Assembly: GCF_013167455.1 (NCBI RefSeq)
Contig: NZ_CP038328.1
From: Escherichia coli O157:H7
GTDB lineage: Bacteria > Pseudomonadota > Gammaproteobacteria > Enterobacterales > Enterobacteriaceae
Direction: 5' to 3' (one strand)
Length of the DNA: 64,000 nt
Shown: piece after piece, positions 4,008 through 7,000 of the stretch
Position numbering within the stretch: the stretch's first letter is position 1
How the letters are laid out: each line of letters begins with the position of its first letter
Program-made: the position numbers

Positions 4008-7000
4008 TGGTACGCGAGCTGGGTTTAGAACGTCGTGAGACAGTTCGGTCCCTATCTGCCGTGGGCGCTGGAGAACTGAGGGGGGCTGCTCCTAGTACGA
4101 GAGGACCGGAGTGGACGCATCACTGGTGTTCGGGTTGTCATGCCAATGGCACTGCCCGGTAGCTAAATGCGGAAGAGATAAGTGCTGAAAGCATCTAAGC
4201 ACGAAACTTGCCCCGAGATGAGTTCTCCCTGACCCTTTAAGGGTCCTGAAGGAACGTTGAAGACGACGACGTTGATAGGCCGGGTGTGTAAGCGCAGCGA
4301 TGCGTTGAGCTAACCGGTACTAATGAACCGTGAGGCTTAACCTTACAACGCCGAAGGTGTTTTGGCGGATGAGAGAAGATTTTCGGCCTGATACAGATTA
4401 AATCAGAACGCAGAAGCGGTCTGATAAAACAGAATTTGCCTGGCGGCCTTAGCGCGGTGGTCCCACCTGACCCCATGCCGAACTCAGAAGTGAAACGCCG
4501 TAGCGCCGATGGTAGTGTGGGGTCTCCCCATGCGAGAGTAGGGAACTGCCAGGCATCAAATTTAGCGTGCTGATATGGCTCAGTTGGTAGAGCGCACCCT
4601 TGGTAAGGGTGAGGTCCCCAGTTCGACTCTGGGTATCAGCACCACTTTTTAGGTTAAAGTTCGGCAGATTAGAAAAGAATTTGTCTGGCGGCAGTAGCGC
4701 GGTGGTCCCACCTGACCCCATGCCGAACTCAGAAGTGAAACGCCGTAGCGCCGATGGTAGTGTGGGGACTCCCCATGCGAGAGTAGGGAACTGCCAGACA
4801 TCAAATAAAACAAAAGGCTCAGTCGGAAGACTGGGCCTTTTGTTTTATCTGTTGTTTGTCGGTGAACACTCTCCCAACCAGGACAAATCCGCCGGGAGCG
4901 GATTTGAACGTTGCGAAGCAACGGCCCGGAGGGTGGCGGGCAGGACGCCCGCCATAAACTGCCAGACATCAAATCAAGCGAAAGGCCATCCGAAAGGATG
5001 GCCTTTATGCTTTTCGAACTAACATTCAATTAATGGATTACCTGCGATAAAAATGCCCTCGTACGCTCTGACTTAGGATGCGCAAAAAACTCATCCGGTG
5101 CAGCTTGCTCCACTATTTCGCCACGATCCATAAAAATCACCCGGTCAGCGACGGTTCGCGCAAACCCCATCTCATGGGTTACACACAACATTGTCATACC
5201 CGATTGCGCCAGCCCAATCATCGTATCCAGCACCTCTTTCACCATCTCCGGATCGAGCGCCGATGTGGGCTCATCAAACAACATAATTTTCGGCTTCATA
5301 CACAGCGAGCGCGCAATGGCAACGCGTTGCTGCTGACCACCTGAAATCTGTCCGGGAAACTTATGCGCATGTTCGGCAATTCTCACCCGCTCAAGGTAAT
5401 GCATCGCCAGAGCTTCAGCCTCTTTCTTTGGCATCTTGCGTACCCAAATCGGTGCCAGGGTACAGTTCTGTAGAACGGTCAGATGAGGGAAGAGATTGAA
5501 ATGCTGAAAGACCATTCCCACTTCCTGCCTGACGCGCTCAATATTGCGGATATCTTCATTAAGTTCGATGCCATCTACCACGATCCGTCCCTGTTGATGT
5601 TCTTCCAGATGATTAATACAACGAATGGTTGTCGATTTACCGGAACCTGAAGGGCCACACAGAACGATCCGTTCTCCCGGTTGCACGGTTAAATTTATAT
5701 TTTTCAAAACATGGAATTGTCCATACCATTTATTGACGTTTTCCAGCGTAATCATCGCGTTAGCAGGTTGCAGTAAAATTTGGCTCATAGTGTCCTCAAT
5801 GCGGTGTACGCCCGGTGTTAAAACGTTTTTCCAGATGCTGGCTATAGCGCGACATGCTGAAACAGAAGATCCAGTAGATCAGCGCGGCGAAAACATACCC
5901 TTCCGTCGACATACCCAACCAGGCGGGATCAACGGTTGCTTGCTGAACGCTACTGAAAAGATCGAACAACCCGATAATGATCACCAGGCTGGTATCTTTG
6001 AAGAGTGCGATGATGGTATTTACCAGCCCAGGAATTACCAGCTTCAACGCCTGTGGCAGAATAACCAGCCCCTGAGTTTTCCAGTAACCCAACGCCAGCG
6101 ACTCTGCCGCTTCATATTGCCCTTTAGGCAGCGCCTGTAATCCACCTCGCACGACTTCCGCAACATATGCTGACTGAAACAGGATCACGCCAACCAGCGC
6201 GCGGATCAGTTTGTCGATACTGGTGCCTTCTGCCATAAACAAAGGCAGCATGACCGAAGACATAAACAGAACGGTAATCAGCGGCACGCCGCGCCAGAAT
6301 TCGATAAAAATGACCGATAAGATGCGCACAATCGGCATATGGGAGCGGCGACCTAACGCCAGTAAGATCCCCCACGGTAGCGCCCCCGCAATCCCAACTG
6401 ATGCAATAATTAAAGTTAGCGTCAGCCCGCCCCATTGCCGGGTTTCAACCCGCTCAAGAGCAAAAAAACCGCCATACATCAGCCACCAGACAATCAGTGG
6501 GTAAATCACTGCCCAGACCGCAATATAGCGACCGCGATGCGGGAGTATTTTCCAGAACATTGGTGCGATTGACACAAGGCCAATCAGTAATGCCAAGTTA
6601 ATTCGCCAGCGTTGGTCGTGTGGGTAAAGTCCATACATAAACTGACCAAATCGTTCGTGGATGAAGACCCAACAGGCACCGGCTTTTGTGCAGTCGGCAC
6701 GCGTTGAGCCAACCCAGTTAGCCTGCAAAAATGCCCAGTTCAGCAACGGTGGGATCAGTTCCCACATCAACCATATGCAGCCAATAGTCAGCAGGCTATT
6801 GCTCCAGCTGGAGAACAGATTTTTTCGCACCCACACCATCGCGCGGCTTGAGTTATGGCTCGCCGGGCGCGAGGGATGAGACAGCAATACTTTTGTCATC
6901 ATGACTCCTTAGCGTTCCACGATCGCGATGCGGCGGTTATAGATATTCATCAGCAGCGAGATAGTCAGGCTGATAATCAGATAGACCGACATGGTCATGG

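What the first reader, a model, noticed from the sequence alone, without database searches (positions are those of the whole stretch)
4437..5012. rrn operon tail with two 5S genes around tRNA-Thr plus a degenerate 5S 3'-end fragment in the terminator region
5S (4437-4556), tRNA-Thr, then a second 5S (4682-4801) differing at a few positions (e.g. CCTTAGCG vs CAGTAGCG near the 5' end). Around 4950-4970 the motif AACTGCCAGACATCAAAT repeats the 5S 3' end and its flank, just before the T2-like hairpin. This is a sequence echo in the terminator spacer, not a third gene.
Basis: partly seen in the sequence, partly recalled or inferred. Interest (0 to 1): 0.15.

Follow-up and report, generated by a model that had tools for sequence, protein, structure and literature searches.

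The report
Known small-RNA cassette ending rrnD
The "echo" of the 5S rRNA end is real, but it is the known terminal repeat of a tRNA-linked repeat element (the rrF small-RNA gene) between the two terminators of E. coli rrnD, so the finding is correct and ordinary.

Summary
The window is the tail of rrnD of E. coli O157:H7. It reads 5S (4437-4556), tRNA-Thr(GGU) (4569-4644), 5S (4682-4801), terminator T1, a 110-nt structured spacer, an exact 18-nt copy of the 5S-end junction (4957-4974), terminator T2 (4981-5006), then yhdZ on the opposite strand.

The echo is not a leftover scrap. It is the hallmark 3' repeat of a tRNA-linked repeat (TLR; Egan and Landy 1978, Rudd 1999). Here that element is rrF, one of three rrn small-RNA genes (rrA, rrB, rrF) described by Stenum et al. 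2021 (PMC8144298). Its RNA is read through T1, cut out probably by RNase E, and binds Hfq and CsrA in vitro.

My additions:
- The echo pairs with 4850-4863 in a helix that mimics 5S helix I.
- In 29 5S-linked and about 20 tRNA-linked relatives, both strands of this helix follow the host gene.
- The cassette is polymorphic. About 40% of complete E. coli genomes lack it at rrnD, with a cut exactly at the 18-bp repeat. 27% have no copy of this type.

Verdict: already known, low interest.

The parts
4437..4556 (+). 5S rRNA gene, first copy (rrfD)
   Evidence: Rfam 5S_rRNA 93.2 bits. One difference from K-12 rrfD, at position 13.
4569..4644 (+). tRNA-Thr(GGU) gene (thrV)
   Evidence: ARAGORN, Rfam tRNA 70.7 bits, annotated tRNA-Thr in O157 and K-12.
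4682..4801 (+). 5S rRNA gene, second copy (rrfF), with the compensatory helix I pair U3-A117
   Evidence: Rfam 89.5 bits. Alignment of the two copies. One difference from K-12 rrfF, at position 87.
4789..4806 (+). Direct repeat copy 1: last 13 nt of 5S plus 5 nt of trailer. It contains the RNase E site that lies 3 nt after the 5S end.
   Evidence: Exact 18-mer. RNase E site as cited in PMC8144298.
4805..4848 (+). Terminator T1: a 20-bp hairpin followed by a T-rich run. It is the 5' part of the cassette.
   Evidence: Terminator scan, RNA folds. A-U against G-C compensatory difference from rrnB at 4812/4841.
4850..4863 (+). 5' strand of the closing helix. It pairs with the echo and resembles 5S positions 1-11.
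   Evidence: MFE and centroid folds. Helix conserved in 24 relatives, 85% of cells paired.
4884..4953 (+). TLR core: three hairpins (4884-4906, 4909-4923, 4935-4953), including the family-wide motif GCAACGGCCCGGAGGGTG at 4918-4935
   Evidence: Folds. Covariation: 94.6% paired against 33-44% in slid controls, 12 pairs with compensatory changes. Model R1 scores 94.6 bits here and 25.6-36.4 bits on the K-12 tyrT repeats.
4957..4974 (+). Direct repeat copy 2, the 'echo'. It is the 3' end of the TLR and the 3' strand of the closing helix, and it repeats the RNase E site context.
   Evidence: Exact 18/18, extends to 27/30. Same repeat in K-12 rrnA, rrnB and rrnD.
4805..4977 (+). Expected 173-nt RrF RNA, placed by position from the RrB ends mapped in K-12
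   Evidence: PMC8144298. 170/173 identical to K-12 rrF. Ends were not measured in this strain.
4981..5016 (+). Terminator T2: an 11-bp hairpin at 4981-5006 followed by TTTATGCTTTT. It also scores as a terminator on the minus strand, facing yhdZ.
   Evidence: Terminator scan on both strands. The same hairpin directly follows a full 5S in K-12 rrnG.
5030..5788 (-). yhdZ, the convergent gene that identifies the operon as rrnD
   Evidence: ORF list, RefSeq annotation.

Best explanation
The stretch 4802-4974 is a tRNA-linked repeat (TLR) cassette, the rrF small-RNA gene, placed between the last 5S gene of rrnD and its original terminator T2.

Shown in the sequence: the cassette is a terminator hairpin (T1), a short strand complementary to the echo, three conserved hairpins, and then an exact 18-nt copy of the junction '5S end plus trailer'.

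Shown in K-12 by others: T1 stops about 87% of transcripts and T2 stops the rest. The read-through RNA is cut 3 nt after 5S, at the known RNase E site, and again close to the second repeat. This gives a 173-nt RNA, trimmed to about 115 nt, which binds Hfq and CsrA in vitro and lives about 2.5 min.

Inferred here: the echo works at two levels.
- In RNA, it pairs with 4850-4863 to close the cassette in a helix that imitates 5S helix I. It also repeats the AU-rich RNase E site. The cassette is therefore offered to the 5S-processing machinery as if it were another 5S.
- In DNA, the two 18-bp copies let the cassette be lost precisely. That loss leaves an intact 5S gene joined to T2.
For: Identity and literature:
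- 170/173 identical to K-12 rrF. Same layout in K-12 rrnA, rrnB and rrnD.
- PMC8144298 describes the TLR family, the 18-bp repeat spaced 150 bp apart, the RNase E-type 5' end, the 173-nt and 115-nt RNAs, Hfq and CsrA binding, and T1 87% / T2 100% termination.

Family membership tested here:
- A covariance model built only from 5S-linked relatives finds all four K-12 tyrT repeats end to end (36.4-25.6 bits, E 2e-7 to 1.4e-4). Rfam calls those four RtT at 133-137 bits.
- The window spacer gives RtT 24 bits, E 0.0099, and BLAST 27/32, E 1e-4, against the tyrT-tyrV repeat.

Echo follows the host gene:
- In 28 of 29 5S-linked copies from 18 or more genera, the 13-nt 5S part of the echo equals the adjacent 5S end. 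This includes the A variant (window and two Citrobacter) and a GGCT variant (Leminorella).
- tRNA-Tyr, Lys, Arg and Glu-linked copies carry their own host's last 19 nt.

Closing helix:
- Present in the MFE and centroid folds and recovered by RNAalifold.
- Whole structure 94.6% paired against 33-44% in slid controls.
- The 5' regions pair best with their own host's echo: Tyr -17.8, Arg -19.6, Lys -14.4, 5S -11.5 kcal/mol, against -8 to -14.6 off the diagonal.

Precise loss:
- K-12 rrnG has T2 directly after 5S.
- E. coli AST262 and B20123 have rrfF...CATCAAAT|CAAGCGAAAGGCC, an exact 168-bp absence.
- The filled rrnD allele is in 3249 of 5426 genomes.
Against: - No expression or end-mapping data exist for this strain.
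- In K-12 the mapped 3' end lies 3 nt after the 18-bp repeat, which is 8 nt after the 'CAT'. That is 5 nt further downstream than the position equivalent to the 5S RNase E site. The symmetry of the two cuts is therefore not exact (my reading).
- The abundant 115-nt form probably ends inside the echo. This is inferred from the paper's statement that RrF-short differs from RrB-short at only 2 positions. If so, the closing helix cannot persist in the final product.
- For 5S-linked copies the own-echo preference in duplex energy is small: -11.5 against -9.2 to -10.8.
- Variation in the closing helix is mostly one-sided (G-C to G-U), because the echo side is fixed by the 5S sequence.
- Deletion and overexpression phenotypes in K-12 were modest. 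27% of E. coli genomes have no copy of this cassette type. Any cellular function is therefore dispensable.
Confidence: 0.85

Rival explanations
1. The echo is the last remnant of a third 5S gene. On this view a former tandem array 5S-T1-5S-T2 decayed until only the 3' end of the last copy was left.
For: rrnD already shows tandem 5S duplication: a 137-nt repeat at 95% identity, spacing 245. The strand 4853-4863 (UGUUUGUCGGU) matches 8 of 11 positions of rrfF 1-11 and pairs with the echo as helix I does. Model R1 aligns whole 5S genes end to end at 16-17 bits.
Against: The interior is homologous to repeats that follow tRNA-Tyr, Lys, Arg and Glu genes, not to 5S. Rfam 5S finds nothing in 4802-5030 at E<=10. 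The 16-17 bit matches are explained by the shared 18-21 nt. Decay would not keep the echo exact in 28 of 29 lineages.
Confidence: 0.08
2. The two 18-bp copies are a target-site duplication, or att-site remnant, left by a small non-autonomous mobile element. The element inserts at the 3' ends of stable RNA genes, and the echo has no RNA-level role.
For: The same core sits after different genes, each time flanked by that gene's own 18-19 nt. Presence or absence is exact at the repeat, both between operons (rrnG against rrnA) and between strains. Copy number ranges from 0 to 9 places per E. coli genome. A second, shorter class is present in only 575 genomes.
Against: No transposase or integrase is associated with it. 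A duplication of the target alone does not explain why the cassette's 5' strand is complementary to the host-specific echo. The filled rrnD allele is shared with Citrobacter (L019, L039), so the E. coli empty alleles are more simply deletions between repeats. Tandem arrays at tyrT fit unequal crossing-over.
Confidence: 0.12
3. The repeat is a chance or low-complexity match with no significance.
For: None beyond its short length.
Against: 0 matches in 100 dinucleotide shuffles against 3 observed. The repeat extends to 27/30. It is conserved at the same place in three K-12 operons and in 18 or more genera.
Confidence: 0.01

Closest known systems
rrF (RrF), with rrA and rrB: small RNAs between T1 and T2 of E. 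coli rrnD, rrnA and rrnB (Stenum et al. 2021, PMC8144298)
   Same: Same operon and same position. 170/173 identical to K-12 rrF. Same 18-bp repeat spaced 150 bp apart, same T1 and T2, and all five GGA motifs retained.
   Different: Three clustered substitutions at 4876, 4878 and 4879 in the weakly conserved first stem-loop. T2 has an interrupted U-run (TTTATGC). In O157:H7 this is the only copy of the cassette in the genome, whereas K-12 has three.
tRNA-linked repeats (TLR) / RtT RNA of the tyrT operon (Egan and Landy 1978; Rudd 1999; Rfam RF00391)
   Same: Directly follows a stable RNA gene. Ends in 18-19 nt of that gene's 3' end. Shares the core CGUUGC-N-GCAACGGCCCGRAGGG and a closing helix that uses the echo.
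   Different: The host is 5S rRNA, not a tRNA. The echo runs 5 nt past the mature end instead of stopping at CCA. It carries its own terminator hairpin (T1). It scores only 24 bits against the Rfam RtT model, below the gathering score of 45.
rrnB T1-T2 terminator cassette used in cloning vectors (Brosius et al. 1981; from my own knowledge)
   Same: Homologous sequence: 163/173 identical over the RrB-equivalent stretch. 28 places on plasmids in the E. coli collection.
   Different: The rrnD version has A instead of G in both repeat copies, matching rrfF G117A.
3'ETS-leuZ and other small RNAs cut from stable-RNA precursors by RNase E (cited in PMC8144298)
   Same: A short-lived RNA released from the 3' trailer of a tRNA or rRNA transcript by RNase E.
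   Different: 3'ETS-leuZ has no repeat of its host's 3' end and is not a TLR.

Membership tests
tRNA-linked repeat (TLR) family | Lies immediately downstream of a tRNA or rRNA gene in the same transcription unit | tested here: met
   Starts within the trailer of rrfF (4802) on the same strand, upstream of the final terminator T2.
tRNA-linked repeat (TLR) family | Its 3' end repeats 18-19 bp of the 3' end of the gene just upstream | tested here: met
   18/18 exact, 4957-4974 against 4789-4806. It matches rrfF (A variant) rather than rrfD (G).
tRNA-linked repeat (TLR) family | Sequence and structure homology to the classical tyrT 178-bp repeats | tested here: met
   Model R1, built from 5S-linked copies only, hits the four K-12 tyrT repeats at 25.6-36.4 bits, E 1.4e-4 to 2e-7, full length. 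BLAST 27/32, E 1e-4.
Rfam RtT RNA (RF00391) | Score at or above the curated gathering threshold (45 bits) | tested here: not met
   24.0 bits, E 0.0099, at 4842-4964. The tyrT repeats score 133-137 bits. The element is related, but the model as built does not cover it.
RrA/RrB/RrF small RNAs | Located between T1 and T2 of rrnA, rrnB or rrnD and nearly identical to the K-12 genes | tested here: met
   170/173 to K-12 rrF, 163/173 to rrB, 164/173 to rrA. T1 and T2 found.
RrA/RrB/RrF small RNAs | Transcribed by read-through of T1, processed to 173-nt and about 115-nt RNAs, binds Hfq and CsrA | not testable with these tools
   Shown for K-12 in PMC8144298. No expression data for this strain.
5S rRNA gene (a third copy) | Match to the 5S covariance model | tested here: not met
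   No 5S_rRNA match in 4802-5030 at E<=10 with permissive filters.
Intrinsic (rho-independent) terminators T1 and T2 | G+C-rich hairpin followed by a T-run | tested here: met
   4805-4848 and 4981-5006 on the plus strand. 4 sites found against 1.2 expected. Termination efficiency was not measured here.

The most novel reading that the evidence does not exclude
TLRs, including this one, may be portable RNA cassettes. Each end (a 5' strand and the 3' echo) would copy the terminal helix of whichever stable RNA gene the cassette follows. The host's own processing enzymes would then excise the cassette RNA, and the DNA repeat would allow exact gain or loss. That would make them a distinct kind of non-autonomous element moving among 5S and tRNA genes of Gammaproteobacteria. 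It would also explain why E. coli strains carry anywhere from zero to several copies.
Probability: 0.2. Interest if true: 0.45.

Novelty: already known. Interest (0 to 1): 0.15.

Why it matters
The practical value is for annotation. The rrF cassette is unannotated in RefSeq: no feature lies under it in O157 or K-12, and 'none' appears in every listed row. Rfam's gathering threshold also misses it, so a scan will keep flagging it as odd.

The population result is a modest addition to what the 2021 paper reports. The cassette is absent from rrnD in about 40% of complete E. coli genomes. It is absent altogether in 27%, and each loss seen base by base is exact at the repeat. This bears on whether these small RNAs have an important function.

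Tried and rejected
- Third 5S gene or pseudogene: a permissive Rfam scan of 4802-5030 gave no 5S match.
- tRNA origin of the spacer: no tRNA match in the same scan. The 20/28 resemblance of the T1 hairpin to the tRNA-Thr D-arm region (family D3) was not pursued and may be chance.
- Coding potential: the ORFs crossing the region (4600-5022 +, 4649-5029 -, 4911-5033 +) run through rRNA and tRNA genes and hairpins. I treated them as mechanical artefacts.
- Promoters: none found in 4300-5400.
- A second TLR elsewhere in the 64-kb window: none. No other Rfam family reaches its gathering score in 8001-64000.
- Literature: Bosl and Kersten 1991 (PMC329039) is not held. Brosius 1981, Duester and Holmes 1980 and Rudd 1999 could not be read, so what they say about the repeat rests on citations in PMC8144298 and on my memory.
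- Each was repeated successfully.

Full report
**1. What is there**

The window begins inside a ribosomal RNA operon: 16S (cut at the window start), tRNA-Ile, tRNA-Ala, 23S. The flagged region then contains:
- a 5S gene at 4437-4556;
- tRNA-Thr(GGU) at 4569-4644;
- a second 5S gene at 4682-4801.

Both 5S genes are full-length Rfam matches (93.2 and 89.5 bits). The 751 bases around the finding are 100% identical to many E. coli O157:H7 chromosomes. In those records they are annotated as 5S, tRNA-Thr, 5S, followed by yhdZ and yhdY on the other strand. K-12 has the same layout at rrfD-thrV-rrfF-yhdZ. The operon is therefore rrnD.

**2. The two 5S copies**

They differ at 5 of 120 positions: 3 C>T, 12-13 CT>AG, 87 T>A and 117 G>A.
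- Positions 3 and 117 face each other in helix I of E. coli 5S rRNA (established structure). The second copy therefore carries a compensated U-A pair in place of C-G.
- Against K-12, the first copy differs at position 13 and the second at position 87.
- The duplicated unit is 137 nt at 95% identity with a spacing of 245 nt.

**3. The echo**

- AACTGCCAGACATCAAAT occurs exactly at 4789-4806 and again at 4957-4974. The first site is the last 13 nt of the second 5S plus 5 nt of trailer.
- The first 5S junction at 4544-4561 differs by one base, G for A.
- No such match appeared in 100 shuffles.
- The similarity continues for 30 nt (27/30) into the left arm of the next hairpin.
- T1 is the 20-bp hairpin at 4805-4848. 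T2 is the 11-bp hairpin at 4981-5006. Both are followed by T-runs.
- The region 4780-5020 folds far better than shuffled sequence (z = -9.8).

**4. What it is**

A permissive Rfam scan of 4802-5030 gave no 5S and no tRNA match. It did give a weak full-length match to RtT RNA (24 bits, E 0.0099, gathering score 45). RtT is the 178-bp repeat that follows the tRNA-Tyr genes of the tyrT operon.

In K-12 the last 19 nt of tRNA-Tyr recur four times downstream of the two genes, each closing one repeat. Rfam calls these four repeats RtT at 133-137 bits.

A literature search found Stenum et al. 2021 (PMC8144298). That paper states the following:
- These elements are the tRNA-linked repeats (TLRs): 22 copies at ten loci in K-12.
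- Their common hallmark is 18-19 bp at their 3' end identical to the 3' end of the gene upstream.
- The three copies that follow 5S in rrnA, rrnB and rrnD, between T1 and T2, are the small-RNA genes rrA, rrB and rrF.
- They are made by read-through of T1. Citing Orosz 1991, T1 terminates 87% of transcripts and T2 100%.
- The RNA starts 3 nt after the mature 5S end, at the known RNase E site, and ends 3 nt after the second repeat, giving 173 nt.
- It is trimmed to 113-115 nt, lives about 2.5 min, and binds Hfq and CsrA in vitro.
- Phenotypes on deletion or overexpression were modest.
- The authors suggest that the repeat is there to be recognised by RNase E.

The window's copy is 170/173 identical to K-12 rrF. 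By position, RrF here would be 4805-4977. The finding is therefore a known element, and the spacer it closes is a described gene.

**5. Membership tested here rather than recalled**

(a) Position directly after a stable RNA gene: met.

(b) Terminal 18-bp repeat: met.

(c) Homology to the tyrT repeats: met.
- I scanned one genome per species for the core GCAACGGCCCGRAGGGTG (120 loci).
- I extracted 29 5S-linked copies and aligned 24 distinct ones.
- I built a covariance model from them.
- The model was built without any tRNA-linked sequence. It finds all four K-12 tyrT repeats end to end (36.4, 27.6, 25.8 and 25.6 bits; E 2e-7 to 1.4e-4).
- BLAST gives 27/32 (E 1e-4) to the tyrT-tyrV repeat.

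(d) Rfam's RtT model does not reach its threshold here. The rrn copies lie outside that family as curated.

**6. Anatomy and likely mechanism**

Folding 4805-4977 gives:
- the T1 hairpin;
- a closing helix in which 4850-4863 (UGUUGUUUGUCGGU) pairs with the echo 4958-4971;
- three hairpins enclosed by that helix, at 4884-4906, 4909-4923 and 4935-4953.

The MFE and centroid structures agree (z = -7.8). The result is the same without T1.

The partner strand UGUUUGUCGGU (4853-4863) matches rrfF positions 1-11 (UGUCUGGCGGC) at 8 of 11 positions. It pairs with the echo base for base as helix I does. The cassette therefore ends in an imitation of the 5S terminal helix, followed by the same AU-rich trailer.

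Across 24 relatives the whole structure is 94.6% paired, against 33-44% when partners are slid. Twelve pairs show compensatory changes, mostly in the last hairpin. RNAalifold recovers the closing helix on its own. Its variation is mostly wobble-compatible on the 5' side, as expected when the 3' side must equal the 5S end.

In tRNA-linked copies the same model columns are filled by host-matched pairs, for example GGAAGG with CCUUCC at tyrT. TLR 5' regions form the most stable duplex with their own host's echo. The contrast is clear for Tyr, Arg and Lys and small for 5S.

The step from 'helix and RNase E site are duplicated' to 'this is why the RNA is cut there' is inference. It matches the suggestion in the paper. 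One detail does not fit neatly: the mapped 3' end in K-12 lies 5 nt beyond the position equivalent to the 5S cut.

**7. The echo tracks its neighbour**

- In 28 of 29 5S-linked copies, the 13-nt 5S part of the echo equals the adjacent 5S end.
- The A variant is found in both copies in this window, in K-12 rrnD and in two Citrobacter species.
- K-12 rrnA and rrnB have G in both copies.
- Leminorella has a different 5S end (GGCT), and its echo has it too.
- The echo has no 5' partner that requires A rather than G, because U4855 pairs with either. The agreement therefore reflects copying (duplication or gene conversion), not independent selection at that base.

**8. The cassette comes and goes**

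- K-12 rrnG has the T2-type hairpin directly after a full 5S. Its downstream flank matches that of rrnA. It therefore looks like rrnA minus one 168-bp unit.
- Within E. coli, the junction of cassette and yhdZ flank (4864-5100) is covered at 80% or more in 3249 of 5426 complete genomes. In the rest the match starts at the echo, with a 5S gene annotated under it.
- I read two such alleles base by base (AST262 and B20123). They are rrfF...AACTGCCAGACATCAAAT|CAAGCGAAAGGCC, an exact absence of 168 bp bounded by the repeat.
- The cassette core (4850-4956) is present in 3944 genomes (72.7%), at 1-9 places with a median of 2. O157:H7 strains have a single place, this one.
- A shorter 5S-linked class has a repeat spacing of 136-140 and no T1. 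It is seen between 5S and tRNA-Asp or tRNA-Thr in other genera, and it occurs in 575 E. coli genomes.
- Citrobacter shares the filled rrnD arrangement. The E. coli empty alleles are therefore most simply deletions between the repeats. I did not build a tree to count events.

**9. Verdict**

The feature is already known as a TLR, rrF. It is neither a chance match, nor a third 5S gene, nor mere debris.

Three things go beyond the literature I could read:
- the explicit host-matched closing helix across the 5S and tRNA versions;
- the concordance of echo variants with the neighbouring gene;
- the presence/absence polymorphism in E. coli.

These make a mobile-cassette reading conceivable but do not establish it. 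Interest is low.

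Noticed in passing
window 4876-4879: Three clustered substitutions relative to K-12 rrF (GAGT to AACC) lie in the poorly conserved first stem-loop of the small RNA. The window's version of the core is at 99% identity or more in 1476 E. coli genomes, so it is a common haplotype.
   Followed up: partly
window 5004-5014: The U-run of T2 is interrupted here (TTTATGCTTTT). K-12 and two other E. coli strains have TTTTTGCTTTT. This could weaken the final rrnD terminator in O157:H7.
   Followed up: no
window 4981-5032, minus strand: The T2 hairpin also scores as a terminator on the minus strand (tail CGCTTGATTT). It lies 24 nt beyond the yhdZ stop codon at 5030-5032, so it may end both convergent transcripts.
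   Followed up: no
window 1326-1434: Rfam StyR-44 (RF01830) matches at 122.9 bits in the spacer just upstream of 23S. This is a known family inside rrn operons.
   Followed up: no
window 4768 and 4449: Strain-level 5S differences from K-12: U87A in the loop of the second copy and G13T in the first copy.
   Followed up: partly
E. coli genome collection; loci L130, L131: The rrF cassette is missing from rrnD in about 40% of complete E. coli genomes, by an exact 168-bp cut at the 18-bp repeat. 27% of genomes have no copy of this cassette type. None of the listed hits has any annotated feature.
   Followed up: yes
L058 (E. coli E69), L012 (Superficieibacter), L094 (E. whittamii): A shorter 5S-linked TLR class (repeat spacing 136-140, no T1 hairpin) sits between a 5S gene and a downstream tRNA-Asp or tRNA-Thr. 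It is present in 575 of 5426 E. coli genomes and absent from K-12 and this window.
   Followed up: partly
L018, L020, L021, L027, L044, L049, L062, L064-L066 and others (Pseudomonas and other non-enteric genomes): The 18-nt core pattern also matched in Pseudomonas, Streptomyces, Mycolicibacterium and other genomes, with no tRNA, 5S or echo nearby. These may be chance matches of a G+C-rich 18-mer or an unrelated element.
   Followed up: no
L081 (Thiotrichales MAG), L103 (Aestuariibacter), L120 (Chromatiales MAG): TLRs with the same core and host-matched echoes (tRNA-Tyr, and a tandem array after tRNA-Glu) occur outside Enterobacterales. This is a wider range than the 12 enterobacterial genera that the 2021 paper reports for rrB. 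In L120, downstream of tRNA-Ser, the automatic test found no clean echo.
   Followed up: partly
window 4677-4809, 4498-4564; L005-L008: The TLR covariance model aligns whole 5S genes end to end at 16-17 bits (E about 0.02-0.05). The shared 18-21 nt probably drive this, but any deeper 5S ancestry of the cassette is unresolved.
   Followed up: no
window 4577-4604 vs 4816-4843: The T1 hairpin (GGCTCAGTCGGAAGACTGGGCC) resembles the D-arm region of the adjacent tRNA-Thr at 20 of 28 positions (family D3). This is possibly chance.
   Followed up: no
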